DNA of 64,000 nt from an uncultured Bacteroidota bacterium (lineage in GTDB: Bacteria; Bacteroidota; Bacteroidia; AKYH767-A; JABDAW01). A model generated the notes under the pieces. It was given only the letters and a program-made list of their open reading frames with translations. It was not told the origin of the DNA and searched no databases. The position numbers and the translations under genes were made by a program. This document shows positions 1,856-62,499 of the stretch, piece by piece (positions within the stretch are counted from its first letter, which is position 1; every line of letters starts with the position of its first letter). The stretch is taken from positions 1,428-65,427 of the forward strand of contig CAIMUP010000013.1 in the NCBI GenBank assembly GCA_903844645.1, in the 5' to 3' direction.

Positions 1856-2047
1856 GATTATTAGCGGAGCTCGAATAGGTATTAGAGGAGCTCAAATGGT
1901 TATTAGAGGAGCTCGAATAGGTATTAGAGGAGTTCGAATAGGTATTAGAGGAGTTCGAATAGGTATTAGAGGAGCTCTAATAGGTATTAGAGGAGCTCAA
2001 ATAGGTATTGGAAGAGCTCAAATAGGTATTAGAGGAGCTCAAATTCC
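1856..2047. repeat. 21-bp tandem repeat, about 9 copies (unit AGGTATTAGAGGAGCTCGAAT)
   Basis: Direct reading gives units at 1877+21k with single-base variants (ctcAaat, gTtcgaat, ctcTaat, ttgGaaG). The array fills the gap between the TonB receptor stop (TAA 1789-1791) and the next gene start (ATG 2078). Confidence 0.92.
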
Positions 2048-4043: not shown

Positions 4044-4357
4044 GGCATTAGGAAAAAAAGCAGGGCATCAAATTACCCAATTTCATACCTTAAGTTTTTG
4101 CTCAAGGCATCACATTACCCGATGTGTGGGGTTGAGCAAAAACTTAATGCTTCACATCATCCAATTTGGAGGTATGGGAAAAAAAGTAATGCCCCACATT
4201 ACCCGATTTTGGGGTATGGCAAAAAACCTAATGCCCCACATTACCCAATGTGATGGTATGGCAAAAAACCTAATGCCCCACCTTACCCAATGCGGGGGTA
4301 TGAGCAAAAAAGTAGTGCCTCACATTACCTAATGTGGGGGTGTGATTTTCAATACAT
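4044..4357. repeat. 42-bp (2x21) tandem repeat, about 7 copies, each unit carrying a short hairpin (CCCCACATT-ACCC-AATGTGGGG type)
   Basis: The homologous 5-mer 'GGCAT/TGCNT' recurs at 4064, 4106, 4148, 4190, 4232, 4274 and 4316, exactly 42 bp apart; the ~4044 copy is only 20 bp upstream, i.e. partial. Units are degenerate but clearly homologous. The array lies in the convergent gap between trxB (+) and the symporter (-). Confidence 0.88.
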
Positions 4358-6086: not shown

Positions 6087-7532
6087 ATGATAGAAAAGAT
6101 AAAAGCATTTGAAGAAATAGCACGGCAACTGGAGCCGAATGCCCCTATTCGTAAGGGAGTCAGGAAGAAGGTGATAGATTATACAGAAGATTTTCTGGAT
6201 AACATTTATTCTCTGAAAGCCTACGAACAAACTGATGATCAAGGCAAAGGACTCTTCGATTCTCCCATTAATGATGTTACGATAGACATTGAGGAGGCGA
6301 TACAAATCATCTTCGAGAATGTGGATACGCAAGGATTGAATCCGGCTTCTGGCGGACATCTTGGGTATATCCCCGGTGGTGGCATCTATTATTCTGCTTT
6401 GGCAGATTATATGGCAGCTATTACCAATCGGTATGCAGGAATTTTCTTTGCCTCGCAAGGTGCGGTAAGGATGGAGAACCTGTTGATAAAATGGATGGCT
6501 AATATCGTAGGCTATGACGAAGCCGCAAGTGGAAACCTTACCACTGGCGGCAGCCTTGCCAATCTTATCGCGATAGTTACCGCCAGAGATGCCCATAATA
6601 TTAAAGCGAAAGACATCGAGAAAACCGTTATTTATTTGAGTGAGCAAGCACATCACAGCGTGGAGAAAGCCATCCGTATTGCGGGCATGAATGAATGCCA
6701 AAAACGCTTCCTTCCGATGGATGAAAGGTATCGTATCAAACCTGATGCTTTGGAAGAATATATCAAACAAGATCTATCCGATGGCTTGAAGCCCTGGTTG
6801 GTGATCGCTGCTGCCGGAACGACTGATGTTGGGGCGGTGGACCCCTTGGATAAGATAGGAACCATTGCCAATGAATACAACCTTTGGTTTCATGTGGATG
6901 GTGCTTATGGCGGCTTCTTCGCCTTGACCGATGAAGGTAAAACAATCCTCAAAGGCATCGAGAAATCTGACTCCGTAATCATGGATCCGCATAAAAGTTT
7001 GTTCCTGCCTTACGGGCTTGGCGTGGTCTTGATAAAGGACAAGAAACACCTCTACCATGCCCATCATTACTTCGCCAATTACATGCAAGACACCTTGAAA
7101 AATGCCGATGAATTATCCCCCGCAGACCTCTCGCCAGAACTTACCAAACACTACCGCAGCCTGCGATTGTGGCTCCCCCTGAAACTCCACGGCGTAGCCC
7201 CCTTCCGTGCCGCTTTGGAAGAGAAATTACTACTCGCAAAATACTTCTACGACAAGATAAAAACCACCAAAGGCTTCGAGGTATTGATAGCCCCGCAACT
7301 CTCCGTCATCATCTTCCGATACATCCCCAAAAGCGGCGATGCGAACGCCTTCAACGAACGCATCATTCAGGAAATTCACAAAGACGGACGCATCTTCTTT
7401 TCCTCCACCACCATCAACGGAAACTACATGCTGCGCCTCGCCATCCTCTCCTTCCGAACACACCTCGAAACGGTAGATTTAGCCCTCCAAATCATCAATG
7501 AAAAAGTAGCGTTATTAAACCTCAAACCTTAA
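6087..7532 (+). CDS. pyridoxal-phosphate-dependent group II decarboxylase (aromatic-L-amino-acid / glutamate decarboxylase family)
   Basis: 481 aa; PLP-lysine motif 'VIMDPHKSLFLPYGLG' (the S-x-H-K signature of group II decarboxylases); 'HVDGAYGG' region. Confidence 0.8.
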   Translation: MIEKIKAFEEIARQLEPNAPIRKGVRKKVIDYTEDFLDNIYSLKAYEQTDDQGKGLFDSPINDVTIDIEEAIQIIFENVDTQGLNPASGGHLGYIPGGGIYYSALADYMAAITNRYAGIFFASQGAVRMENLLIKWMANIVGYDEAASGNLTTGGSLANLIAIVTARDAHNIKAKDIEKTVIYLSEQAHHSVEKAIRIAGMNECQKRFLPMDERYRIKPDALEEYIKQDLSDGLKPWLVIAAAGTTDVGAVDPLDKIGTIANEYNLWFHVDGAYGGFFALTDEGKTILKGIEKSDSVIMDPHKSLFLPYGLGVVLIKDKKHLYHAHHYFANYMQDTLKNADELSPADLSPELTKHYRSLRLWLPLKLHGVAPFRAALEEKLLLAKYFYDKIKTTKGFEVLIAPQLSVIIFRYIPKSGDANAFNERIIQEIHKDGRIFFSSTTINGNYMLRLAILSFRTHLETVDLALQIINEKVALLNLKP

Positions 7533-8652: not shown

Positions 8653-8721
8653 AAAAATAAAATGAAAAACTATTGCTTTCGGTTTAGGAAAAATGCAGGG
8701 CGGTTTAGCTTTTATATTGAC

Positions 8722-8931
8722 CTGTTTAAAGTTTATGTCGGTCTGTTTAAAGTTTGTATCGGTCTGTTTAAAGTTTAAACAGGTCTGTTTAAAGTTTGTA
8801 TCGGTCTGTTTAAAGTTTAAACAGGTCTGTTTAAAGTTTAAACAGGTCTGTTTAAAGTTTGTATCGGTCTGTTTAAAGTTTAAACAGACCTGTTTAAAAT
8901 TTGTACAGACCTGTTTAAAAACTATATTGAC
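8722..8931. repeat. 21-bp tandem repeat, 10 copies, with alternating units CTGTTTAAAGTTTGTATCGGT and CTGTTTAAAGTTTAAACAGGT
   Basis: 'CTGTTTAAA' begins at 8722, 8743, 8764, ..., 8911, exactly 21 bp apart. The second unit type contains the 19-bp palindrome CTGTTTAAAgTTTAAACAG (GTTTAAAC core). Confidence 0.92.
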
Positions 8932-15334: not shown

Positions 15335-15546
15335 GATGGTGGCAAAGAAAGGAAATTCGTGGGGCAGGGATGGAAAACTTTTTTTTCAGAGAATTGTATT
15401 TCTCCACTATTTTTAGTATCATTGCAACCTCGAACAAAAAATGAAGCCTCAAAACACATATAATAATCTCGCAAATCTCTCCAATAATTTTGGAGGTGGG
15501 GCTTGCATATTAAATAGAGTTTGTGTAAACTCGAAGCCGCCTCAAT

Positions 15547-15577
<31 letters not shown>

Positions 15578-15721
15578 CAAATTTTTTGAAATAACCAAAT
15601 CGGAGAACACTTTTTCTGGTTCGGTTCAAAAAATTTCGTTTTCCTTTTCTAATCTTTCATTAAAGTTTCCAAAAATTTCCGCGATTTTTCAGGAATCTTG
15701 GTCAAGTCGCCAGAGTTTTGA

Positions 15722-15950
15722 CCAAAGTTTCATACGCCCCAGCCAAAGTGTGCCGAACTTCAGCCAAAGTTTTGGAAACTTTGACCAAAGTCCAGCGACT
15801 TTGACCAAAGTAGATGAAGATTCGGTTGAGGTTTCTGAAACTTTGACCAAAGTGGGCTTCACCGTGGTCAAAGTTTCTGCTTTCTCGCCCAAAGTTTCCG
15901 GAAATTCCTCCAAAGTTTCCCAAAAATCCCCCAAAGTTTCTGAAACTTCG
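15722..15950. repeat. degenerate 21-bp phased repeat, about 11 units, each anchored on CCAAAGT(T)
   Basis: 'CCAAAG' recurs at 15722, 15743, 15764, 15785, 15806, 15847, 15868, 15889, 15910 and 15931, all on a 21-bp lattice with one unit skipped. The region is open in frames on both strands. Confidence 0.85.
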
Positions 15951-16076
15951 GGACCTGTAGGAAGAATATTGGCTGTAAATCAGTCCATTTCTTTCCTGAC
16001 TTCGATTTTCGAGGTCCTTTTACAAAATCCCGCTAACGGAATCCAAATAGAAATTTAATAACTTAATAAATAAACT

Positions 16077-28052: not shown

Positions 28053-28646
28053 ATGCATTCATACGACGATGATGGTATTAAATACGACCATCCATACCAT
28101 TCTCTGAAAGAGTATCTTTGCATCCTTAATAATAATAAAGGTATGAAGATAAATTTTATATTGGATGGGTTCGATTTTGATGATACCCACCAGGCTCATC
28201 AGGTGTTTGAGAATATTGGGCAAGAGATGGGGAGGGTAATTACCGATAAATTGCGCCATTTGGTGGGCTTTCAGGATGAGCATGGTCAGTTTGGCGGCAC
28301 GATAGAGATTCATGCGAGCATTCATGGTCCTGATTTGAACAAAGCAGATACCGCCCAATATAATAAGGAGTACGATTACTATTTTGATGTTCAGGATGCA
28401 GACCATATTGTGGTCGTTCCGAAGAAAAAAGGTGGTACCAATCCTGATAATATTACCAAAACGGAGAAGACTTATCTGCAAGAAATGATTGATGGTACTT
28501 CCAATAAAATTATTGCTGATGATCATGACAAAAATATAGAAACGGTGAAGTCAAACAAGAAAAGTATTCGATTTAAGACTAAATGCAAGACTCCGGGGGA
28601 CTTGAAAAAATACGTTGATAAACATAAACTCTTATTAAAAGAATAA
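28053..28646 (+). CDS. hypothetical protein
   Basis: 197-aa ORF; possible alternative start at MKINFIL (28143). No motifs recognised. Confidence 0.35.
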   Translation: MHSYDDDGIKYDHPYHSLKEYLCILNNNKGMKINFILDGFDFDDTHQAHQVFENIGQEMGRVITDKLRHLVGFQDEHGQFGGTIEIHASIHGPDLNKADTAQYNKEYDYYFDVQDADHIVVVPKKKGGTNPDNITKTEKTYLQEMIDGTSNKIIADDHDKNIETVKSNKKSIRFKTKCKTPGDLKKYVDKHKLLLKE

Positions 28647-28854
28647 TTCACCCTTTTGAGGGATTGTTTTAGGAACTAATACCTTGTAATTTTGCATCCT
28701 TAATTACAAACAATGGATCATTACAATCACATAGCGAATACAACGGATAGCAATCACGACAGAGGCAATGCTTCTGGAAGGTTTTTCAATGGTGGCGGTA
28801 GTGATATGGATACAAATTGTAGTTTAAACATATGCCAAAAAAACTCAAACATAT

Positions 28855-29094
28855 CTTTTAGTAACAATAAGATACCTTTTAGTAACAATAAGATACCTTT
28901 TAGTAACAATAAGATACCTTTTAGTAACAATAAGATACCTTTTAGTAACATAAAGATATGTTTTAGTAACAAAAAGATACCTTTTAGTAACAAAAAGATA
29001 CCTTTTAGTAACAAAAAGATACCTTTTAGTAACAAAAAGATATGTTTTAGTAACAAAAAGATACCTTTTAGTAACAATAAGATATGTTTTAGTT
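28855..29094. repeat. 21-bp tandem repeat, about 11.5 copies (unit CTTTTAGTAACAATAAGATAC, variants AAAAAGATAC / GATATGT)
   Basis: Units start at 28855+21k, checked at 28876; read directly. The array is stop-free in several frames, which produces spurious heptad ORFs on both strands. Confidence 0.92.
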
Positions 29095-29205
29095 TTTCTC
29101 ACCATAGTAAAAGCAATAGTTGCTATGGTGATGGGTCTTTTCAGAATGCCCACCCCTCTCCCTTGTATTCAAAACCAAGTAGTAACATAATAAAATAACA
29201 ATAAA

Positions 29206-29973
29206 ATGAGTCTATTAAAATTAGTATTAGTAAAAATTTCTATCTTCATGATCATCACGAAGGCTTCCATCATGAGGCAGTACCTTTTAGATTGTGTCAG
29301 TGCGGGTTCTGCCTCCACTTTGTATGCCAATCCGGCTATTACCACTGCCTTTTATACCTCGATGACGAATGCTGCGGCTGCCATTCAGACAGCGGTAACA
29401 GTTTGTGCGGCGAACAACACGAAGGCAAACAGGGATGCCATTAAAGATGCTATCGCAGCAGGAAAAGTGGTCGCGGCAAGCTATGCTTCGCAAGTTCAGG
29501 TGATTGCCAATCTCCCTATTAATGCCGCTACCCGCGAGGCAGCAAAGACAAATATTGAACAATCGCATCTGACGGCACAAAAATTAAATCAAACAACCAT
29601 AGGAATACCCGAAACCCCTGTATTAACGGGCGAAAATAACGGCATCGGCAAGATAAAAGTAAAGGTTACCAATCCTGGCGTATCGTATGACCCTAAAACT
29701 ATTATTTTTGTTGCTGTTTCCCTGCCCATAGTGCCTGTAACGGTGCCGCCAACACCTCCTCCGGCTGACCCCGTAGTTACGCTCATAGCAGGACAAGTGA
29801 TGGTAAAGACTTCCGTGGCATGCGAAGTGATAACCATCACCCAGGATGGCAAAGGAAGAGAGGTAGATTTGGTTGGATTGACTGCCGGCACTCGCTTTTC
29901 CATCTCTGCCTACACAAAAAATGGCAATAAATTGGTGAGCGTATTGTCGAACGCTATTATCGTACAGGCATAA
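29206..29973 (+). CDS. hypothetical Ala-rich protein
   Basis: 255-aa ORF immediately after the repeat; proline stretch 'VPPTPPPADP'; no known motif. Confidence 0.4.
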   Translation: MSLLKLVLVKISIFMIITKASIMRQYLLDCVSAGSASTLYANPAITTAFYTSMTNAAAAIQTAVTVCAANNTKANRDAIKDAIAAGKVVAASYASQVQVIANLPINAATREAAKTNIEQSHLTAQKLNQTTIGIPETPVLTGENNGIGKIKVKVTNPGVSYDPKTIIFVAVSLPIVPVTVPPTPPPADPVVTLIAGQVMVKTSVACEVITITQDGKGREVDLVGLTAGTRFSISAYTKNGNKLVSVLSNAIIVQA

Positions 29974-34679: not shown

Positions 34680-34866
34680 AATGTACACGTGTACAATTCG
34701 TCCTGCAACTGTGTCGGAGGCAATGTTCGGTGTACTTTGCCCCAACACAGTTGTGTTTGCCAATTCTACATGTGTACTATTGGCAAACACAGTTACTTTT
34801 GCAGAAGTACACGTGTAGAATTGGCAAACACAACTGTGTTTGCCAAATGTACACGTGTACATTCAA
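34680..34866. promoter_or_regulatory. cluster of alternating perfect palindromes (TGTACACGTGTACA and TTGGCAAACACAACTGTGTTTGCCAA) in a divergent promoter region
   Basis: A 14-bp perfect palindrome at 34682-34695 and again at about 34849-34862 with degenerate copies between; a 26-bp perfect palindrome at 34821-34846 with half-copies at 34745-34764 and 34781-34795; GTGTAC cores about 41 bp apart. Confidence 0.6.
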
Positions 34867-37950: not shown

Positions 37951-38202
37951 ATGAATATCTTTTGCTTCGGGATGAATATCCTTTGCTTCGGGATGAATAT
38001 CCTTTGCTTCGGGATGAATATCCTTTGCTTCGGGGTGAATATCTTTTGCTTCGGGGTGAATATCTTTTGCTTCGGGATGAATATCCTTTGCTTCGGGATG
38101 AATATCCTTTGCTTCGGGATGAATATCTTTTGCTTCGGGATGAATATCTTTTGCATCGGGATGAATATCTTTTCATCCGGCTTCAATACATTTTCATCCC
38201 GG
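37951..38202. repeat. 21-bp tandem repeat, 12 copies (unit ATGAATATCCTTTGCTTCGGG, variant ATCTTTTGCTTCGGGGTGA)
   Basis: 'ATGAATATC' begins at 37951, 37972, ..., 38161, exactly 21 bp apart. Confidence 0.92.
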
Positions 38203-38398
38203 GTTAATGTCTTACATGAACTTTTCCCCGTTATAAAACCCGATTTGGAGGGGTAAAAAGGGAGGTTTTTGGAAATTCTCCACCCTCCATTTCCCACTTT
38301 TAAGTCTCCATTCCCCATTTTCCATTCCCCATTCTTTTTCCATTGTCAGGAAATTTTATAGTTTTGCCCGCCTAACACTAAAATTATATCATAAAATA

Positions 38399-41284: not shown

Positions 41285-41445
41285 TACGACTACAATGATG
41301 CCGTCATCTCCTACAATGATAGCGTCATCTACTACAATTATGCCGTCATCTACTACAATTATGCCGTCATCTACTACAATGATGGCGTCATCTACTACAA
41401 TTATGCCGTCATCTACTACAATGATGGCAACTTCGACTACACATT
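41285..41445. repeat. 21-bp tandem repeat, about 7.5 copies (unit GCCGTCATCTACTACAATTAT/GAT)
   Basis: 'CGTCATCT' occurs at 41302, 41323 and 41344+21k. The array fills the gap between the 40406 gene (stop 41251) and the 41460 gene. Confidence 0.92.
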
Positions 41446-43867: not shown

Positions 43868-44153
43868 ACGGCTGTTGATTGGAGAAAGTCGGCTGTTGAT
43901 TGGGGAAAGTTGACTGTTGATTGGGGAAAGTCGGCTGTTGATTGGGGAAAGTCGGCTGTTGATTGGGGAAAGTTGACTGTTGATTGGGGAAAGTCGGCTG
44001 TTGATTGGGGAAAGTCGGCTGTTGATTGGGGAAACATGGACGTAGATTGGGGAAACATGGACGTAGATTGCGGAAACATGGACGTAGATTGGGGAAACAT
44101 GGAGGTAGATTGTAGAAACATGGAGGTAGATTGCAGAAACATGGAGGTAGATG
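43868..44153. repeat. 21-bp tandem repeat, about 13.5 copies (units GTCGGCTGTTGATTGGGGAAA / GTTGACTGTTGATTGGGGAAA, decaying into CATGGACGTAGATTGGGGAAA and CATGGAGGTAGATTGCAGAAA)
   Basis: Unit starts at 43888 and 43909+21k; two clear sub-families within one array. Confidence 0.92.
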
Positions 44154-49925: not shown

Positions 49926-50165
49926 GCCGACCGGATTTGGGAAAGATGCGGTCGGATATTTCCTTTCTCCGGTCGGATATTTCTTTTTTCCGGTCGGATA
50001 TTTCTTTTTTCCGGTCGGATATTTCTTTTTTCCGGTCGGATATTTCTTTTTTCCGGTCGGATATTTCCTTTTTCCGGTCGGAGATTTCTTTTTTCCGGTC
50101 GGAGATTTCCTGTTTCCGGTCGGAGATTTCCTTTTTCCGGTCGGATATTTCCCGTTACCGACCAT
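49926..50165. repeat. 21-bp tandem repeat, about 11 copies (unit CCGGTCGGATATTTCTTTTTT, with GAGATTTC variants)
   Basis: 'CGGTCGG' occurs at 49948, 49969+21k; it begins immediately after the dgkA stop. Confidence 0.92.
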
Positions 50166-50299: not shown

Positions 50300-51691
<1,392 letters not shown>

Positions 51692-51721
51692 ATCCCAAAT
51701 AACCTTAATAATGATATAATT

Positions 51722-52849
51722 ATGGAAATAACAATCAAAAAAGTCGAAAACGGAGCCGATAAGAAGAAGTTTATTGACTTCGTTCATGATTTATATGCCG
51801 ATGATCCGAACTATGTGCCTGAACTTTACATGGCGCAAAGCGATTTGATGAATCCTAAGAAGAATCCTTTCTTTTGGCATTCCAAGGCGGATCTTTTTCT
51901 TGCTGAACGCGATGGAAAAGTGGTAGGAAGAATCGCCGCCATAAGGAATAATAATTATAATGAATACGCGAAAACCAAAGTCGGCTTCTTCGGGTTCTTC
52001 GATGTTATAAATGATTATGAAGTGGCTAAGAAATTACTCGATACCGCTAACGATTGGATTAAAAAGGAAGGCTTGACGGACATTATAGGACCTACAAATT
52101 TCTCTACCAATGAAACTTGCGGCTTATTAGTAGAAGGTTTGGATTCTGCGCCTGTAATTATGATGACTTATAACAAGGCTTATTACAAAACCTTCTTAGA
52201 TAAATATGGTTTTACTAAGCAAATGGACCTGATTGCATACGTCCTGGACCCGATGGATATGCCGGAAAAGCTATTGCGATTAGCAAAAGGGATTGAGGAG
52301 CGTTTGAAGAGAAGAAACATTACCGTCCGCAAGATAAATATGAAGGATTTTAACAACGAAGTAGCCAAAGTAAAGGAAATTTATAATGCTGCCTGGGATA
52401 AAAATTGGGGTTTTGTGCCGATGACGGATGACGAATTCAAATTCCAGGCTAAGGATATGAAAATGATATTAGATAAAGACTTCGCGTATGTAGCCGAAGA
52501 CAACGGAAAGGTCATCGCGTTCTCATTAACTATTCCGAATGTGAACGAGGTGTTCAAAACCATCAAGCGGGGCAGGTTATTCCCGACGGGGCTGTTAAAA
52601 TTAGTATTAAATAAGAGCAAAATATCCAGCGTACGTGTGATTACATTGGGGGTGTTGGAGGAATATCGGAAGCTGGGTATAGACGTCGTGTTTTATGCTA
52701 AGAACATGGAAACCGCCCAACAGAAAAAACTTAAATATGCAGAGGCTTCCTGGATTTTAGAGAACAATAAGGAGATGAATTCTCCCTTAATTTCCATCAA
52801 TGCGAAGCCTTATAAAACATATCGTATCTTTGAGAAGAAGATAGTATGA
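51722..52849 (+). CDS. hypothetical protein, possibly a GNAT-fold N-acyltransferase
   Basis: 375 aa; 'VGRIAAIRNN...VGFFGFFDV' resembles a GNAT beta4-alpha3 motif; weak. Confidence 0.45.
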   Translation: MEITIKKVENGADKKKFIDFVHDLYADDPNYVPELYMAQSDLMNPKKNPFFWHSKADLFLAERDGKVVGRIAAIRNNNYNEYAKTKVGFFGFFDVINDYEVAKKLLDTANDWIKKEGLTDIIGPTNFSTNETCGLLVEGLDSAPVIMMTYNKAYYKTFLDKYGFTKQMDLIAYVLDPMDMPEKLLRLAKGIEERLKRRNITVRKINMKDFNNEVAKVKEIYNAAWDKNWGFVPMTDDEFKFQAKDMKMILDKDFAYVAEDNGKVIAFSLTIPNVNEVFKTIKRGRLFPTGLLKLVLNKSKISSVRVITLGVLEEYRKLGIDVVFYAKNMETAQQKKLKYAEASWILENNKEMNSPLISINAKPYKTYRIFEKKIV

Positions 52850-53853
52850 AGAAAGTTCTGATTACTGGTGCTAGCGGCTTTGTTGGTAGCTTCTTGGTGG
52901 AAGATGCCTTAAAAAAAGGCTACGAAGTATATGCCGGAATCCGCGGAAGTAGCAGCCGCAAGTATCTTCCTGATGAACGGATTAAATTTTTATCTCTCGA
53001 CTTCGGGAATACCAATCATCTTACCAAAAGTCTTGACGATTTTGCCCAAGAAAATAACGGCGGTTTCGATTTTATTATTCACGGAGCGGGGATTACGAAG
53101 GCAAATAATATTCAGCATTATTACGATGTCAATTATCTTAATACAAAACATTTTGTCGAAGCATTAATTACCACAAAAACGATCCCGAAAAAGTTTATTC
53201 AGGTAAGTTCGCTCGCCGCTTTTGGTCCGGGCAATCCAAAAACATTAGAGCCGATCAATCATACTCATAAGCCGATGCCGGTAAGTAGTTACGGAAAGAG
53301 TAAATTAGTTGCCGAAGAATATTTTGCTACTCTGAATGACTTTCCTTTTATTATTTTTCGCCCCACGACGGTATATGGTCCGAGGGAGCGGGATCTTTTC
53401 ACGGTTTTCCAGATGGTAAATAATGGTTTTGAATTCTATATCGGGAGGAAACCACAGCATCTTACCTTTATTTATGTCAAGGATTTGGTAACGCTGATGC
53501 TGGATTCGTTGGAGAGGGATATTATTAACAAATCGTACTTTGTTTCGGACGGAAAAAGCTATGAATCGAGCCTGTTGAATACTTATATTAAGCAGGGGCT
53601 GAATAAAAAAACCATCAAACTTACGATGCCGGTCGCGGTGGTGAAGGCTTTGGCGTTTACTTTAGAGAAAAGTTTCGGGTTATTTAATCAAATTCCGACC
53701 TTAAATAGTGAGCGGGTGAAAGAATTTGAGAGTACGAATTGGAAAGTATTCACGGATGACCTTTTCTTAGACTTCAATTTCAAACCGGAGTATGATTTGG
53801 AGCGGGGCGTGATGGAAACCATCGCCTGGTATAAGCAAGAAAAGTGGTTGTAA
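52846..53853 (+). CDS. NAD-dependent epimerase/dehydratase family (extended SDR) reductase
   Basis: N-terminal 'KVLITGASGFVGSFLVE' Rossmann motif; 'SSYGKSK' YxxxK catalytic dyad; overlaps the upstream gene by 4 bp (ATGA). Confidence 0.85.
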   Translation: MKKVLITGASGFVGSFLVEDALKKGYEVYAGIRGSSSRKYLPDERIKFLSLDFGNTNHLTKSLDDFAQENNGGFDFIIHGAGITKANNIQHYYDVNYLNTKHFVEALITTKTIPKKFIQVSSLAAFGPGNPKTLEPINHTHKPMPVSSYGKSKLVAEEYFATLNDFPFIIFRPTTVYGPRERDLFTVFQMVNNGFEFYIGRKPQHLTFIYVKDLVTLMLDSLERDIINKSYFVSDGKSYESSLLNTYIKQGLNKKTIKLTMPVAVVKALAFTLEKSFGLFNQIPTLNSERVKEFESTNWKVFTDDLFLDFNFKPEYDLERGVMETIAWYKQEKWL

Positions 53854-54368
53854 GTCATTTTGAGCCAAAACGGTACCTATTTACTGAAATTCGGTAAGGT
53901 TTTCCCGATATTCTCTGCATAATCCTACGATATTACCTTGATATTTGATTATATATCGAAGGAAATCTCTCATAAATAATCCCAAAAAAGACTTATTTAC
54001 TAAGAATGGTCTATACTTTTATCCAGCGAAACGATGGTTTCATCGGGCTAAACCATAGTTTAAACAGATATTAGACCTCTTTCATTGTTGTCTTTTCAAT
54101 GATCGTATAACAATCTCGGAGGGACGGCATCTTTTTTTATTCGGTAGTAAACGATGATTTATAATAGAGGTCTATTCTTGGGAATAACTATCTAAATCGT
54201 GTGAAATGTGATCTTATACAGGCAGTTTCGGTAGTAAATAGGGGTAGTAATGATCTCGTCCAGAGGGTATTTAATAGTGTTTGGAAGGGTTCTTTAGGTA
54301 ATAATAATGAATGTGTACATACATTTTGTTCGGTGTATATGCCGCCGAGTTATTACAATATAAATTAT

Positions 54369-54775
54369 CCGTCATCATATATGAAAACGGACAATCGTAA
54401 TAGTTATTATTGTATTAACTATTGTAATTATTGCTTTAGCAATAGTAAATATGACCATAACGATACCTTGGGCGATATTTTCTATCGTTACTGCAATAAT
54501 AACATATGTAAAAGGTATCCTTAGGATACCAATTATACGTTTTCATATATGATGACGGACGAAAAGGATAGTAAAAGCTGTTATCACGATAGTTATTGTT
54601 GTTATCACAATGGTAAAAGCGGTTATCACAATAGTTATTGCTGTTATCACAATAGTTATTGTAGTTATCACAATAGTTATTGCAGCTATTACAATTGTAA
54701 AAGCAGTTATTATAATAGCTATAACAGTATTCACGATAGCGATGACAAAAACTGTAAGTACATTCATTAGTAATA
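54369..54775. repeat. AT-rich degenerate 21-bp phased repeats (GTTATCACAATAGTTATTGCT-like) with a 21-bp inverted-repeat pair and a central 17-bp palindrome
   Basis: CCGTCATCATATATGAAAACG at 54369-54389 is the exact reverse complement of 54538-54558; palindrome GGTATCCTTAGGATACC at 54514-54530; 21-bp period clearest at 54579-54720. No convincing CDS lies between 53854 and 54978. Confidence 0.8.
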
Positions 54776-54978
54776 CCATATAAATAGCACAATAGATGAA
54801 GAAATTAAAGGTAAAACGGATGGTTTATATCAGGATTAATGATGTCCCTGACACCCGAATGGTGATTCTTTCCATGTTCCTGACAGGTTTTTTCACCTGA
54901 TAGGTTTTGAGAATTGGAATTCCTATCGTTTCATCAGGTTTTGGGATTACAATTTGGAGGGAAAGGCTTCCTTTTTTA

Positions 54979-55500
54979 TCAAAGCCGATAGTAAAAGGCA
55001 AATTCGGCAGTTACCGTAATGGTTTGGAAGCTGTCGTATCCGCCAAAACCTCCCATTAAATCGACAACGATAGGAGAAGTGCCGGTATATAATTGCAAAT
55101 CCAAGCCGAGACCTGTATTATAGGTCGAATTTGTTTTAACATATCGTTGCCCGGGATAAGTTCCGTAGCCAGAGGCTGGAGTATATTCTTTTTTGTAGAA
55201 GACAGAGTTGGCAAAATAGAAGTAAAGCCCGGCATCTTTAGACTCGCGAAGCCTTTGCAATAACGTAATGCCGAAACTTACTGTAGAATTGTCGTCTTTT
55301 TGATAGTACGGAGCGAAATTGACCATCGCCCCGAAATTTTCGGGAATATATCGGTACGAAAACCCATAGCCCGTCGTGAATCCGGCACCTACGCCGACAT
55401 AATTGTTATAATGTTTTTGCCCGGTAGCATAGTCCTGCGCATGTATTTTATTAATAAAAACGATGGCGATAAGGGCGATTATCAGAAGTTTGTTTTTCAT
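54979..55500 (-). CDS. small outer-membrane beta-barrel protein (hypothetical)
   Basis: Signal peptide 'LLIIALIAIVFINKIHAQ'; 173 aa with Gly/Tyr-rich alternating strands. Confidence 0.45.
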   Translation of the reverse strand: MKNKLLIIALIAIVFINKIHAQDYATGQKHYNNYVGVGAGFTTGYGFSYRYIPENFGAMVNFAPYYQKDDNSTVSFGITLLQRLRESKDAGLYFYFANSVFYKKEYTPASGYGTYPGQRYVKTNSTYNTGLGLDLQLYTGTSPIVVDLMGGFGGYDSFQTITVTAEFAFYYRL

Positions 55501-58020: not shown

Positions 58021-58152
58021 CGACTCGGCTGCGAATGATTTCGTCGTGACTGCGACTATTTTCATCATGACTGCGACCATTTCCGACTAGATTGCGACTA
58101 TTTTCATCGTGACTGCGACCATTTCCGACTAGATTGCGACCATTTTCATCGG
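58021..58152. repeat. 21-bp tandem repeat, 6 copies (alternating TGACTGCGACCATTTCCGACT / AGATTGCGACTATTTTCATCG)
   Basis: 'TGCG' at 58030, 58051, 58072, 58093, 58114 and 58135. The array lies between the co-directional DPP-IV and TPR-membrane genes. Confidence 0.9.
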
Positions 58153-61655: not shown

Positions 61656-61932
61656 GGCGTGTTTTTTAATTCTATGGCGGCGAAATTAAGAAAATTGTTG
61701 GCGTTCGATTATCCGTTCTCGATCATTCGCAATCTTTATCCAAAGATACGTTTTCTCTCATCAAAAAATACTCGGATTGGTACCAAGAAAAGCATCATGC
61801 AGATACCTTCTCTCGGTATTCATTCAGGGAATCGCGATCTGTTGGTTCAAAGACTCGTTTCTTATACACAATACTGCCTCTGTTGTATTCCATTCAGCCT
61901 CCTTTTAGCTGCTAATCGCGATTCTGAAGCCA

Positions 61933-62239
61933 AAAGTCGAGATATTGAAACAATGAATCGTACCCATTAACCACTTAATTGAAGTGAAAGACTATTTTAG
62001 TATAATGAATGACTCATTAAGTATAATGAAAGACTATTTTAGTATAATGAATGACTAAAACACTAATATGAAAGACTAATTACCAGACATGAAAGACCAC
62101 TTCATGTCTGGCAATTAGTCTTTCATATTAGTGAATTAGTCTTTTACCTTAATAAAGTAGTTAATCATTATACTAAAATAGTCTTTCACTTCAATTAAGT
62201 GGTTAATGGGTACGATTCATTGTTTCAAGGTCTCGACTT
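61933..62239. repeat. about 307-bp palindromic element: 73-bp terminal inverted repeats (2 mismatches), internal 21-bp phased TGAA(A/T)GAC repeats, and a central 73-bp palindrome with a CCAGACATG...CATGTCTGG hairpin
   Basis: Left arm 61933-62008 is the reverse complement of right arm 62165-62239. Inner inverted repeat CACTAATATGAAAGACTAATT (62061-62081) pairs with AATTAGTCTTTCATATTAGTG (62113-62133). TGAA(A/T)GAC recurs every 21-22 bp, spacings read 22/21/21/21/21. Confidence 0.9.
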
Positions 62240-62499
62240 GGAATGATAAAATGGAGGAATGGCATCCGATTATCGAGGTATTTAATAAGATAGAGGCGAT
62301 GAATAATACGATAATGACGATACCGAATCATCTGATCAAGATTCCCCAATAAATACCACCGAATACCGACCGATAGGAGGCGAAATGTGAAAACAGAACC
62401 GCTATTTTCGGTACCTTTCTCGGGAATAAAAGATAATAAGTCGCGATGAACATTCTTAGATATTCATCATCTTTATCAAGCCCGAAAAAAGGGAGTATC

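What the first reader, a model, noticed from the sequence alone, without database searches (positions are those of the whole stretch)
53854..54978. A 1.1-kb gene-free AT-rich region built from 21-bp phased repeats with an exact 21-bp inverted-repeat pair and a central palindrome
No credible CDS is present; the only ORFs are low-complexity Cys/Tyr/Asn-rich reads on both strands. The region contains GTTATCACAATAGTTATTGCT-type units on a 21-bp lattice. CCGTCATCATATATGAAAACG (54369) has its exact reverse complement at 54538. GGTATCCTTAGGATACC is a perfect palindrome at 54514. AT-rich phased repeats plus dyad symmetry resemble replication-origin, DNA-unwinding or partition-site architecture, or a heavily decayed member of the 21-bp family.
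Basis: seen in the sequence. Interest (0 to 1): 0.5.

Follow-up and report, generated by a model that had tools for sequence, protein, structure and literature searches.

The report
Hidden mini-genes for greasy peptides
The "gene-free" repeat region is not a replication origin: its core is a 380-bp element, found at two places in this bacterial lineage, whose pattern of change fits tiny, very hydrophobic peptide genes, and the 21-bp repeats are in-frame seven-residue expansions of one of them.

Summary
The sequence features are real: an AT-rich 1.1-kb convergent spacer, a 21-bp lattice at 54568-54735, and an exact 21-bp inverted pair at 54369 and 54538. The "perfect central palindrome" is a 7-3-7 hairpin. 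It is off-centre and is not conserved in the second copy.

The claim of no credible CDS does not hold. A second copy of the core (54365-54743) lies at an unrelated locus next to an Nramp gene (L028/L029), 82% identical, with unrelated flanks. Differences between the copies fall 36:13:14 on the three codon phases. The Ile/Val/Thr/Ala reading phase gives dN/dS 0.31 (p about 2e-5).

The core is one (RYN)n tract carrying conserved mini-ORFs of 78, 33 and 27 aa. Convergent pairs share overlapping stop codons inside the palindrome TCATATATGA, which is the inverted repeat. The 21-bp array is (ITIVITA)n.

I found no DnaA boxes, parS or dif, and the local skew has terminus polarity, not origin polarity.

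The most likely reading is a small membrane-peptide module resembling type I toxins. The coding strand and the function are unproven.

Separately, 21-bp arrays with unrelated units fill most non-divergent spacers in this clade.

The parts
54365..54743 (.). Core element. It is homologous to L028 6375-6732, and L029 is identical to L028 over the aligned stretch. Identity is about 81-82%, and the flanks on both sides are unrelated.
   Evidence: Over the alignment range 54369-54740, 351 positions align with 63 substitutions. P1 is 95% identical and P2 is 100% identical.
54340..54790 (.). (RYN)n tract held in a single phase: purine, pyrimidine, any base. Both strands therefore read as Ile/Val/Thr/Ala/Met codons.
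   Evidence: the RYN fraction is 0.5-1.0 here and 0.95-1.0 in the array. The window-wide mean is 0.24 and the 99th percentile is 0.58; among the window and 8 other loci scanned, only this element and its L028 copy reach 0.8 over 90 nt.
54543..54779 (-). ORF-A, 78 aa: MVLLMNVLTVFVIAIV...(ITIVITA)n...TILFVRHHI*. It is the longest hydrophobic mini-ORF and contains the 21-bp array.
   Evidence: The L028 counterpart (6532-6756) ends with the same FVRHHI*. dN/dS is 0.28 over 65 aligned codons. GRAVY (mean hydropathy) is 2.31. Gene callers call it on metagenome contigs, as 78 or 85 aa.
54568..54735 (.). The 21-bp array, 8 units in register. On the - strand it reads as ITIVITA / AFTIVIT heptads. It differs by one whole unit between assemblies.
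   Evidence: Within-array variation by coordinate phase is 18/2/8. L002 has one extra unit. Copy B proteins P0130 and P0135 differ by one 7-aa unit.
54451..54552 (+). ORF-B, 33 aa: MTITIPWAIFSIVTAIITYVKGILRIPIIRFHI*.
   Evidence: L028 has a 33-aa counterpart with the same start and end. dN/dS is 0.60 over 33 codons. Hydrophobic residues reach 10 of 15 in the best 15-aa stretch.
54375..54458 (-). ORF-C, 27 aa: MVIFTIAKAIITIVNTIITITIVRFHI*. It diverges from ORF-B, with overlapping start codons.
   Evidence: The L028 counterpart is 21 aa, one 7-aa unit shorter, with tail IVRYHI*. dN/dS is 0.34 over 19 codons. The only substitution in P1 is Phe to Tyr in this frame.
54307..54384 (+). ORF-D remnant: MNVYIHFVRCICRRVITI*IIRHHI*. 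It is a collapsed, stop-interrupted inverted copy of the head and tail of ORF-A.
   Evidence: Inverted repeat 54297-54329 / 54745-54777 is 33 nt and 73% complementary. It has no counterpart left of P1 in L028.
54369..54389 (.). P1, the left arm of the exact 21-bp inverted pair. It is itself an imperfect palindrome around TCATATATGA. On both strands it reads R-[H/F]-H-I-stop, so it holds the overlapping tails of ORF-D and ORF-C.
   Evidence: (I4). The 22-nt stretch 54369-54390 is 21/22 identical in L028.
54538..54558 (.). P2, the right arm of the inverted pair. It holds the overlapping tails and stop codons of ORF-B (+) and ORF-A (-).
   Evidence: P2 sits in a 35-nt block (54531-54565) with no substitution between the two copies, where about 6 would be expected at 18% divergence.
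54368..54559 (.). A 192-bp imperfect palindrome (85-nt arms, 72% complementary) closed by the P1:P2 stem. It folds as a long hairpin on either strand.
   Evidence: I1. RNA fold energies are -71.9 and -73.2 kcal/mol, z -9.1 and -10.9. In L028 the closing stem is kept at 20/21, the interior differs, and z is -5.1. Much of the 72% arm complementarity is expected from the RYN low complexity (my inference).
54394..54452 (.). Short 21-bp array, 2.6 units, inside the inter-P segment. The window has one unit more than L028.
   Evidence: (D2).
54514..54530 (-). A 7-3-7 hairpin followed by TTTT on the - strand. It looks like a terminator and lies 13 nt past the ORF-A stop. It contains the TAG that ends the + strand Cys/Tyr ORF.
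   Evidence: It is not conserved in L028, where the sequence is AGTGTCCTTACGATAAC and TAG is TAC.
54884..54981 (+). Two + strand terminator-like hairpins with T runs (54884-54899 and 54956-54971), outside the conserved element.
   Evidence: 3 terminator-like sites were found in the region against 0.7 expected.
53854..54364 (.). Unique AT-rich spacer with no detectable relative and no conserved ORF. It contains a 12-nt direct repeat, TTCGGTAGTAAA, at 54140 and 54227.
   Evidence: (D4).

Best explanation
The core of the region (54365-54743, extending to 54779) is a lineage-restricted element present at two or more loci. It is one continuous (RYN)n tract that encodes very small, very hydrophobic Ile/Val/Thr/Ala-rich peptides.

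What the sequence shows:
- The layout is D-> <-C B-> <-A.
- Each convergent pair ends in the same palindrome, CGT-YWT-CAT-ATA-TGA on both strands, so the two ORFs share overlapping stop codons and tails R-[H/F/Y]-H-I.
- The exact 21-bp inverted repeat is simply the two copies of this tail-to-tail junction.
- The 21-bp lattice is an in-frame heptad expansion, (ITIVITA)n, of the hydrophobic segment of the longest ORF (ORF-A, most likely on the - strand). It was made by the same 21-bp duplication and slippage process that fills many other spacers of this genome. It gains or loses whole units between strains.

What I infer:
- No canonical Bacteroidota promoter motif is present, and in both loci the element sits between convergent genes. 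The peptides are therefore probably expressed from read-through of the flanking operons.
- The two strands' transcripts would be mutually antisense, and each can fold into the P1:P2-closed hairpin.
- Functionally this resembles a type I toxin-antitoxin or small-membrane-peptide module whose expression is limited by antisense pairing and RNA structure.

The coding-like constraint and the two-copy distribution are shown by the data. Translation, the coding strand and toxicity are inferred.
For: - A second copy exists in a different gene context, between a 96-aa gene and Nramp next to a DtxR-family regulator. It is 82% identical over about 370 bp and the flanks are unrelated.
- Substitutions by phase are 36:13:14, chi-square p about 3e-4 by my arithmetic.
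- Nei-Gojobori dN/dS is 0.31 in the hydrophobic phase, with Fisher p 2e-5 and 4e-5. It is 0.94 in the Cys/Tyr frame (p 0.84) and 1.65 in the third frame.
- Within the array, variation by phase is 18/2/8. In the - frame this means wobble varies most, then position 1, then position 2.
- ORF-A, B and C keep their open frames and tails in both copies, and B and C also keep their start codons.
- All indels between copies and between strains are multiples of 21 bp (P0130 against P0135).
- The only P1 substitution is Phe to Tyr in ORF-C.
- The RYN tract is unique in about 200 kb examined.
- Codon usage of the hydrophobic frames is 0.17-0.25 per codon, within the range of real genes (0.245 +/- 0.083). 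The Cys/Tyr frames score -0.17 to 0.01.
- ORF-B and ORF-C meet the empirical type I toxin criteria of Fozo et al. 2010 (PMC2887945). They are 70 aa or shorter, reach at least 10 of 15 hydrophobic residues, and have a charged or aromatic C-terminus. They are repeated in one long spacer and coincide with a local folding-energy minimum.
- ORF-A lies downstream of, and co-directional with, the flanking gene in both loci: 199 nt after the 173-aa gene, and 9 nt after Nramp.
Against: - There are only two diverged copies. The phase bias outside the array (11:6:5) is not significant on its own.
- An (RYN)n tract is automatically stop-poor and hydrophobic on both strands. The ORFs on the two strands are therefore not independent evidence, and the coding strand cannot be told from substitutions.
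- The N-terminus of ORF-A is not homologous between copies, and the L028 ORF starts at TTG.
- No TAnnTTTG promoter motif lies in 53700-55100.
- No Pfam, NCBIfam, PADLOC or PHROGs family matches, and the protein-database search with ORF-A returned nothing.
- Gene callers disagree between loci.
- ORF-A, at 78 aa with about 70 uninterrupted apolar residues, is atypical for known toxins.
- The terminator-like hairpin is not conserved.
- Other 21-bp arrays in the genome show no sign of coding: open-frame count 3.95 against 3.65 expected, p 0.09.
Confidence: 0.5

Rival explanations
1. The region is a non-coding structural spacer. It is one more of the lineage's 21-bp minisatellite and hairpin tracts at gene 3' ends, comparable to REP/BIME elements. 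It acts at most as a barrier or RNA 3'-end stabiliser between convergent operons. The RYN periodicity would be a by-product or a relic.
For: - 10 of 17 spacers of 120 bp or more in the window carry a 21-bp array of 100 bp or more, with unrelated units.
- Several arrays come with long dyad symmetry, for example 61934-62239.
- Units are enriched for internal dyads, P about 0.001.
- Arrays vary by whole units between strains.
- The hairpin closed by P1:P2 is kept in both copies.
- No promoter motif is present.
- Both loci are convergent junctions.
Against: - It does not explain why 57% of substitutions fall on one phase of three, or dN/dS 0.31 at p about 2e-5.
- It does not explain the single-phase RYN tract running across P1, the centre and P2.
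- It does not explain why the starts of ORF-B and ORF-C and all the tails are conserved.
- The hairpin interior is not maintained, and the one change in the closing stem is not compensated.
Confidence: 0.25
2. The region is a decaying relic of a once longer gene for a repetitive hydrophobic protein. The coding-like signal is historical and the present mini-ORFs are fragments.
For: - The hydrophobic frame is open for 56 codons between P1 and P2 on both strands, beyond the ATG-defined ORFs.
- ORF-D is clearly degenerate.
- The N-terminus of ORF-A is not conserved.
Against: - The stop-containing junctions P1 and P2 are the best conserved parts, at 95-100%, with a 35-nt block carrying no change. 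That is the opposite of what random decay predicts.
- The stops sit at identical places in both copies.
- Constraint persists after the copies diverged to 18%.
Confidence: 0.1
3. The region is an invertible DNA switch (inverton). The 147-169-bp segment between the 21-bp inverted repeats would be flipped by a site-specific recombinase, as with Bacteroidales invertible promoters.
For: - The flanking inverted repeats are exact over 21 bp, 148 bp apart in the window.
- They are conserved in the second copy at 20/21.
- The size is typical of invertons (my recollection of Jiang et al. 2019, not checked here).
Against: - Six contigs from four samples have the same orientation relative to the left flank. 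The two copy-B contigs align with the window in that same orientation.
- No recombinase family appears among the genes called within about 10 kb at either locus.
- No TAnnTTTG promoter motif lies inside.
- There is no gene on either side for a flipped promoter to drive.
- The repeats are explained by the overlapping ORF tails.
Confidence: 0.05
4. The region is a replication origin, DNA-unwinding element, partition site or terminus (dif) region.
For: - The region is AT-rich.
- Its repeats are phased at two helical turns.
- It has dyad symmetry.
- The local GC skew changes sign near 55-56 kb.
Against: - No DnaA boxes, no parS and no dif-like core are present.
- The skew extremum is a maximum and coincides with the change of gene strand.
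- The same element occurs at a second, unrelated locus.
- Dozens of similar 21-bp arrays with other units occur across the genome.
- No dnaA, dnaN, parA, parB or rep genes lie next to it.
- It is absent at the orthologous junction of the nearest other species.
Confidence: 0.02
5. The region is a leader-peptide attenuator rich in Ile, Thr and Val, like thrL or ilvL. It would sense charged tRNA and control downstream genes through alternative hairpins.
For: - The peptides are almost pure Ile/Thr/Val/Ala runs.
- They are followed by strong alternative hairpins.
- The resemblance to thrL and ilvL leaders is from my own knowledge.
Against: - In both loci the element lies between convergent genes. 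No biosynthetic gene lies downstream on either strand.
- ORF-A is far longer than known leader peptides.
Confidence: 0.03

Closest known systems
Type I toxin-antitoxin loci (for example ibs/sib, ldr/rdl, zorO/orzO, the fst par locus, txpA/ratA, bsrG/SR4)
   Same: - The ORFs are very small, with one hydrophobic stretch and a charged or aromatic C-terminus.
- Several paralogous copies lie in one unusually long spacer.
- The convergent arrangement gives 3'-overlapping, mutually antisense transcripts.
- The RNA structure is strong.
- The phylogenetic range is narrow, and annotation misses them.
The criteria are from Fozo et al. 2010, PMC2887945. The examples of 3' overlap are from my own knowledge and the abstracts listed.
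   Different: - There is no sequence similarity to any known toxin family.
- Both convergent partners are hydrophobic ORFs, not one ORF plus one non-coding RNA.
- The stop codons overlap inside a conserved palindrome.
- The longest ORF carries a variable heptad array and reaches 78-85 aa.
- No own promoter is detectable.
- None of the type I toxin papers returned by the literature search mentions Bacteroidetes.
- Toxicity and an antitoxin RNA are untested.
Bacterial minisatellites (VNTR) in spacers, including the minisatellite inside the Porphyromonas gingivalis 'BrickBuilt' MITE (recalled from memory, not checked)
   Same: - It is a head-to-tail array of about 20-bp units in a spacer.
- It gains and loses whole units between strains.
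- It is associated with inverted repeats.
   Different: - The array lies in a tract under codon-phased constraint.
- The genome's many arrays share only the 21-bp period, not unit sequence or flanks.
- No terminal-inverted-repeat family or target-site duplication was found.
REP/BIME extragenic palindromes of enterobacteria
   Same: - It has imperfect palindromes at gene 3' ends and between convergent genes.
- It can form stable hairpins in read-through transcripts.
- More than one copy exists per lineage.
   Different: - Only two copies are known.
- The P motif is absent from the rest of the 64-kb window and from the other 21 of 29 loci held at the time.
- The 30 matches in the metagenome scan look like chance.
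- No RAYT transposase was seen.
- A coding-like signal is present.
Iteron-type origins and centromere-like repeat sites
   Same: Direct repeats are spaced at two helical turns in AT-rich DNA.
   Different: - No initiator or partition gene is adjacent.
- There are no DnaA boxes or parS.
- The repeat units vary mainly at every third base.
- The same period recurs in about a dozen unrelated arrays across ordinary chromosomal spacers.

Membership tests
Chromosomal replication origin (oriC) | A cluster of DnaA boxes (TTATCCACA-like) | tested here: not met
   No box with one mismatch or fewer lies in 53854-54978. The window has 24 against 19.4 expected. The unit motif TTATCACAA matches the box at only 6 of 9 positions without a gap.
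Chromosomal replication origin (oriC) | A minimum of cumulative GC skew, with leading-strand gene orientation diverging from the site | tested here: not met
   The local cumulative skew has a maximum at about 55-56 kb and genes converge on the site. Whole-genome skew is not available.
Chromosomal replication origin (oriC) | Conservation at the same position in related genomes | tested here: not met
   In L022/L023 (SPT 86% identical) the epimerase-like gene is followed by a 92-bp spacer and an RND pump gene. The only relative of the element is at an unrelated locus.
Partition site (parS or centromere-like repeats) | A parS consensus, or repeats next to parAB or rep genes | tested here: not met
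   No TGTTNCACGTGAAACA within 3 mismatches occurs in the window. The neighbours are ceramide-synthesis genes, a 173-aa protein and a DPP-IV peptidase.
Type I toxin-antitoxin module | A small ORF (70 aa or shorter) with a predicted transmembrane stretch (at least 10 of 15 residues from I, V, L, F, C, M, A) | tested here: met
   ORF-B (33 aa) reaches 10 of 15 and ORF-C (27 aa) reaches 11 of 15. ORF-A reaches 13 of 15 but is 78 aa. The criterion is from PMC2887945.
Type I toxin-antitoxin module | A C-terminus rich in charged, polar or aromatic residues | tested here: met
   The tails are VRHHI, IRFHI, VRFHI and VRYHI, and they are conserved in both copies.
Type I toxin-antitoxin module | Paralogous copies repeated within one long spacer | tested here: met
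   Four related ORFs (A, B, C and the remnant D) lie in a 1.1-kb spacer.
Type I toxin-antitoxin module | An antisense RNA antitoxin that pairs with the toxin mRNA | not testable with these tools
   Only the potential exists: the ORFs are convergent and fully overlapping, and the hairpin has z -9 to -11. No transcript data are available.
Type I toxin-antitoxin module | Toxicity of the peptide on overexpression | not testable with these tools
   This needs an experiment.
Type I toxin-antitoxin module | Sequence membership of a described toxin family | tested here: not met
   There are no Pfam, NCBIfam, PADLOC or PHROGs matches at E of 1 or below.
Invertible promoter (inverton) | Inverted repeats flanking a segment of 100-700 bp | tested here: met
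   An exact 21-bp pair lies 148 bp apart.
Invertible promoter (inverton) | Both orientations present in populations, a recombinase nearby, and a promoter inside | tested here: not met
   Six contigs from four samples have the same orientation, and the two copy-B contigs align in that orientation. No recombinase family is among the called neighbours. No TAnnTTTG motif is inside. Read-level data were not available.
The lineage's 21-bp arrays (defined here) | Period exactly 21 with no indels between units, a location in a spacer, and whole-unit copy-number differences between strains | tested here: met
   The same properties hold for the arrays at 1859, 8711, 28847, 37951, 41289, 43869, 49949, 51563 and 58039.
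The lineage's 21-bp arrays (defined here) | A unit sequence shared with other arrays | tested here: not met
   The best cyclic match between units averages 10.2 of 21, against 10.08 for shuffled units. The arrays are a family by period only.
Amino-acid leader-peptide attenuator | A biosynthetic operon downstream on the same strand | tested here: not met
   Both loci are convergent junctions.

The most novel reading that the evidence does not exclude
Two things may be new.

(1) This may be a palindromic double-stranded coding module. One (RYN)n tract would be translated on both strands into mirror-image hydrophobic peptides. Convergent genes would share overlapping stop codons inside a conserved palindrome, and each mRNA would be the other's antisense regulator. 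That is a self-contained toxin/antitoxin-like arrangement not described so far, in a phylum absent from the type I toxin papers my search returned.

(2) It sits in a clade of uncultured Bacteroidia where an unknown ruler-like process makes tandem duplications of exactly 21 bp. That length is two helical turns and seven codons. The duplications arise from arbitrary local sequence and fill most non-divergent spacers. Here the process can be seen remodelling a gene.
Probability: 0.15. Interest if true: 0.8.

Novelty: new variant of a known kind. Interest (0 to 1): 0.5.

Why it matters
If the hydrophobic mini-ORFs are translated, this would be an unannotated family of membrane-active peptides in Bacteroidota. 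None of the type I toxin papers my search returned mentions that phylum. Its gene geometry is unusual: convergent ORFs share stop codons in a palindrome, and both strands are potentially coding.

The region is also a clean example of a misleading six-frame view. Low-complexity DNA that looks non-coding (Cys/Tyr/Asn ORFs) hides a constrained frame that only a diverged second copy reveals.

Independently, this clade's genome-wide habit of making 21-bp arrays from unrelated sequences points to an undescribed mutational or structural mechanism. It offers natural material to study how tandem duplication lengthens small proteins in frame.

Tried and rejected
**Negative searches**
- Rfam at gathering thresholds gave no hit in 64 kb, and there are no tRNA or tmRNA genes.
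- DnaA boxes, parS and a dif-like core are absent from the region.
- BLAST of the region against phage and plasmid collections gave no match. The P motif is absent from viral contigs.
- The P motif in JGI metagenome contigs gave 30 single sites. None has adjacent hydrophobic ORFs, the GC is mostly 0.46-0.65, and the number is close to chance expectation.
- Pfam, NCBIfam, PADLOC and PHROGs gave nothing for any small ORF.
- The protein-database search with ORF-A gave no scored hit, not even itself, presumably because of composition filtering. Exact look-ups of ORF-A, B and C found nothing.

**Looking for orthologues through neighbouring genes**
- The 173-aa neighbour has only 7 relatives. The closest is 58% identical, sits on a contig without DNA, and that contig ends right after the gene.
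- The closest GTDB genome is only 50% identical for the epimerase-like gene.
- Same-species contigs are 100% identical except for one repeat unit, so they carry no information on selection.

**Ideas tested and dropped**
- Shared ancestry or a shared motif of the different 21-bp units was tested and dropped.
- An excess of open frames across arrays as a sign of coding was not significant.
- Intrinsic DNA curvature as the reason for the 21-bp period gave a mean percentile of 0.29 across 18 arrays.
- The canonical Bacteroidota -7 promoter motif does not occur in the region.
- Inversion of the segment between the repeats was not seen in any assembly.
- An assembly artefact from k = 21 is unlikely. 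My reasons: the arrays are imperfect, and they recur in contigs from different samples and sources, ENA and Logan.
- Four literature searches for genome-wide 21-bp arrays found nothing relevant.
Full report
**1. What is at the coordinates**

53854-54978 is the spacer between two convergent genes. On the left is a + strand NAD-epimerase-like gene (52846-53853). It is the last gene of a ceramide-type operon. That operon holds a serine palmitoyltransferase (NF047600, 685 bits), a GNAT-like 375-aa protein and the epimerase-like reductase. On the right is a - strand 173-aa gene (54979-55500) that follows a DPP-IV peptidase gene.

- The spacer is AT-rich: GC 0.33 overall and 0.285-0.30 at 54300-54800, against 0.41 for the window.
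- Tandem Repeats Finder (TRF) reports a 21-bp array at 54580-54722 (6.8 copies, 77% matches) and a 2.6-copy array at 54399-54452. Eight units are in register from 54568.
- CCGTCATCATATATGAAAACG (54369-54389) has its exact reverse complement at 54538-54558. No shuffle gave a match.
- GGTATCCTTAGGATACC (54514-54530) has 7-bp arms around a 3-nt loop. It is not a strict palindrome and it is not at the centre of the inverted pair.

**2. Context: a genome full of 21-bp arrays**

The window contains about a dozen arrays of period exactly 21 with essentially no indels. They start at 1859, 8711, 28847, 37951, 41289, 43869, 49949, 51563, 54580, 58039 and 61985/62116. A 42-bp array starts at 4111.

- Their units are no more alike than shuffled units: 10.2 against 10.08 matches of 21. 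Their flanks share nothing.
- 10 of 17 spacers of 120 bp or more carry an array of 100 bp or more. The two divergent, promoter-bearing spacers carry none.
- Contigs of the same species from other samples differ by whole units.
- Related species also carry 21-bp arrays, with other units at other places. SPT identity is 86-93% for L022, L024 and L026, and L024 has five or six arrays in 20 kb.
- More distant Bacteroidia loci have none.
- At the spt / GNAT-like gene junction the array of this species is missing in L022 and L026, so arrays turn over quickly.
- Units are enriched for internal dyad symmetry, P about 0.001. Several arrays sit in long palindromes.
- I found no description of this phenomenon in four literature searches.
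- An assembly artefact is unlikely. The arrays are imperfect, and they recur in contigs from different samples and sources, ENA and Logan.

**3. The key result: a second copy and a codon-phased substitution pattern**

Same-species contigs are identical in the region except for one extra unit in L002, so they say nothing about selection.

A profile-free scan of 1.84 billion representative proteins with the + strand Cys/Tyr ORF found P0130 (130 aa, 57% identity). Its cluster mate P0135 led to contigs L028 and L029. There, a sequence homologous to window 54365-54743 lies between a 96-aa gene and the 3' end of an Nramp (MntH-type) gene. A DtxR-family regulator is next to it. This is again a convergent junction, and the flanks are unrelated.

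Tetranucleotide usage (r 0.94-0.95) is compatible with the same genome. In addition, the copy-B contigs and contigs of the window's species come from the same assembly accessions. Neither point proves it.

Over 351 aligned positions there are 63 substitutions:

| Measure | Result |
|---|---|
| Substitutions by phase relative to 54381 (0 / 1 / 2) | 36 / 13 / 14 |
| dN/dS, hydrophobic phase, - strand | 0.31 (Fisher p 2e-5) |
| dN/dS, hydrophobic phase, + strand | 0.31 (Fisher p 4e-5) |
| dN/dS, Cys/Tyr/Asn frame | 0.94 (p 0.84) |
| dN/dS, third + frame | 1.65 |

- Variation among the eight units of the array shows the same phasing, 18/2/8.
- All indels between copies and strains are 21 bp (P0130 against P0135).
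- The phase bias outside the array (11:6:5) is in the same direction but is not significant alone.

**4. Anatomy**

From about 54340 to 54790 the DNA is a single-phase (RYN)n tract. The RYN fraction is 0.95-1.0 in the array, against a window mean of 0.24. Among the window and 8 other loci scanned, only this element and its L028 copy reach that level.

RYN codons are Ile, Met, Val, Thr and Ala, and the reverse complement of an RYN tract is again an RYN tract. Both strands therefore read as stop-poor hydrophobic peptides.

The ORFs, conserved in both copies, are:

| ORF | Strand and coordinates | Length | Sequence | L028 counterpart |
|---|---|---|---|---|
| A | - 54779 to 54543 | 78 aa | ...(ITIVITA)n...FVRHHI* | same tail |
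| B | + 54451-54552 | 33 aa | MTITIP...IIRFHI* | 33 aa, same start and end |
| C | - 54458 to 54375 | 27 aa | MVIFT...IVRFHI* | 21 aa, one unit shorter, tail IVRYHI* |
| D | + 54307-54384 | remnant | MNVYIHFV...VITI*IIRHHI* | none |

- The layout is D-> <-C B-> <-A.
- Each convergent pair meets in the palindrome P, which reads CGT-YWT-CAT-ATA-TGA on both strands. The two ORFs of a pair therefore overlap by their last codons and stops.
- P2 lies in a 35-nt block without a single change between copies. The only change in P1 is Phe to Tyr in ORF-C.
- On either strand the P1-P2 segment folds into a long hairpin (-72 to -73 kcal/mol, z -9 to -11). In L028 the closing stem is kept at 20/21 but the interior is not.
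- The 7-3-7 hairpin with a T run lies 13 nt past the ORF-A stop on the - strand. It is present only in the window copy.

**5. Which strand, and how it is expressed**

Substitutions cannot separate the strands, because the wobble positions coincide. For ORF-A I favour the - strand for three reasons:

- Its tail is conserved.
- The variant units read Ala-Phe-Thr there, whereas on the + strand they put Lys inside the apolar run.
- In both loci it lies downstream of, and co-directional with, the flanking gene: 199 nt after the 173-aa gene, and 9 nt after Nramp.

No TAnnTTTG promoter motif occurs in 53700-55100. The only terminator-like sites are at 54530 (-) and at 54884 and 54956 (+). Read-through from the two convergent operons is therefore the simplest source of transcripts. 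Those transcripts would be mutually antisense across the whole element. This step is inference.

**6. Mechanism proposed**

The shown parts are these:

- It is a two-copy, lineage-restricted element under codon-phased constraint.
- It encodes or encoded mini-peptides with one apolar stretch and a basic/aromatic tail.
- The 21-bp lattice is an in-frame heptad expansion that changes by whole units.

The inferred part is the function. The peptides would insert into the membrane, and their synthesis would be limited by antisense pairing of the convergent transcripts and by the P1:P2 hairpin. That is a type I toxin-antitoxin-like or small-membrane-protein module.

ORF-B and ORF-C meet the empirical search criteria of Fozo et al. 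2010: size, hydrophobic stretch, polar or aromatic C-terminus, repetition within one long spacer, and a local folding-energy minimum. They match no known toxin family. The papers retrieved on type I systems do not mention Bacteroidetes.

I give about 0.5 to the reading 'constrained hydrophobic mini-ORF element'. Within that, I give perhaps half to the toxin-antitoxin-like mode of action.

**7. Rivals**

- Non-coding hairpin and minisatellite spacer (0.25). It fits the genomic habit and the convergent position. It does not explain the phase bias, the single-phase tract across all three symmetry axes, or the conserved starts and tails.
- Relic of a longer gene (0.1). It is contradicted by the stop-bearing junctions being the most conserved parts.
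- Inverton (0.05). The repeats fit. No second orientation was seen in six contigs of the window locus or in the two copy-B contigs, and there is no recombinase, no promoter and nothing to switch.
- Leader-peptide attenuator (0.03). No downstream operon exists.
- Origin, partition or terminus site (0.02). There are no DnaA boxes, parS or dif. The skew extremum has the wrong sign for an origin and tracks gene strand. The element is duplicated elsewhere and is absent from the orthologous junction in L022.

**8. Novelty and score**

The finding as first interpreted (origin or partition site) is not supported. What is there is a new variant of known kinds: small hydrophobic-peptide modules and in-frame VNTR expansion. 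It has an unusual palindromic, stop-sharing geometry, and it lies in a clade with a striking and apparently undescribed genome-wide 21-bp array habit.

The evidence rests on two diverged copies and no expression data. Interest is therefore moderate, at 0.5.

Noticed in passing
Window 1859-2044, 8711-8919, 28847-29093, 37951-38213, 41289-41426, 43869-44152, 49949-50152, 51563-51690, 58039-58151, 61985-62200 (and the 42-bp array at 4111-4341); also L024 3799-3947, 8603-8810, 12802-13038, 13120-13319, 18447-18653; L022 138-329; L026 3005-3121: This clade has tandem arrays of period exactly 21 bp with unrelated units. They fill 10 of 17 spacers of 120 bp or more in the window, but not the two divergent spacers. 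They vary by whole units between strains and are absent at orthologous junctions of sister species. Units are enriched for dyad symmetry, and predicted curvature is somewhat above that of shuffled units. I found no description of this in the literature.
   Followed up: partly
Window 61930-62243: A nearly perfect hairpin or palindrome of about 300 nt lies between two - strand genes. Its arms (61934-62058 and 62115-62239) are 86% complementary. The RNA fold is -183.7 kcal/mol with z -24.7. Both arms carry 21-bp arrays, in opposite orientation.
   Followed up: partly
Window 51524-51721: The 21-bp array (GKDDNYA heptads) begins inside the last codons of the serine palmitoyltransferase gene (...GDDDNL*). 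It is in the same reading frame as both that gene and the next gene (GNAT-like, 51722-52849). A single TAA separates what would otherwise be a fusion with a repeat linker. In L022 and L026 the two genes are 3 bp apart with no array.
   Followed up: partly
Window 28686-29205: The 21-bp array at 28847-29093 lies in a 161-aa ORF (28713-29198). That ORF is preceded by a canonical TAnnTTTG motif and by the same GCATCCTTAAT block found in front of gyrA and of the gene at 28143. The array is therefore probably transcribed as a long leader or small ORF upstream of 29206-29973. Another assembly aa here, one unit fewer.
   Followed up: no
L024 8403-8978: Inverted repeats of 139 nt (88% complementary) flank a 298-bp segment that contains a 21-bp array. 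The architecture resembles a MITE. No second copy was available to test mobility.
   Followed up: no
L026 2983-3170 and 4180-4304: A 21-bp array is bracketed by inverted copies of its own unit (49-nt arms, 94% complementary). Just upstream of spt there are two runs of a 7-bp repeat in opposite orientation, AGTGAAA x4.6 and TTTCACT x6.
   Followed up: no
Window 34730-34860: 41-bp repeats form a 58-nt-arm palindrome (83% complementary) in the divergent spacer upstream of the 840-aa YfhO-like gene. This is the one strong array in the window whose period is not a multiple of 21.
   Followed up: no
Window 15547-15574; L020 6715-6748: An (AC)14 dinucleotide run lies inside the ORF 15441-16058. It is (AC)17 in another assembly of the same species. 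The 6-nt difference is in frame, giving 205 against 207 aa.
   Followed up: no
Window 50300-53853: The operon upstream of the finding looks like the bacterial ceramide pathway. It holds a serine palmitoyltransferase (NF047600), a GNAT-like putative ceramide synthase and an epimerase-family reductase. It is conserved in L022 and L023.
   Followed up: partly
Proteins P0131, P0132 and P0134 (contig L027 for P0131): Unrelated metagenome ORFs consist of other 7-aa tandem repeats, (FHNSYVK)n and (TMHNAQC)n. Gene callers therefore translate 21-bp arrays in other organisms as well.
   Followed up: no
L028 6241-6291 and 11674-11806: The contig carrying the second copy of the element also has short 21-bp arrays, and it ends inside one. 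This is consistent with it belonging to the same clade or the same genome.
   Followed up: partly
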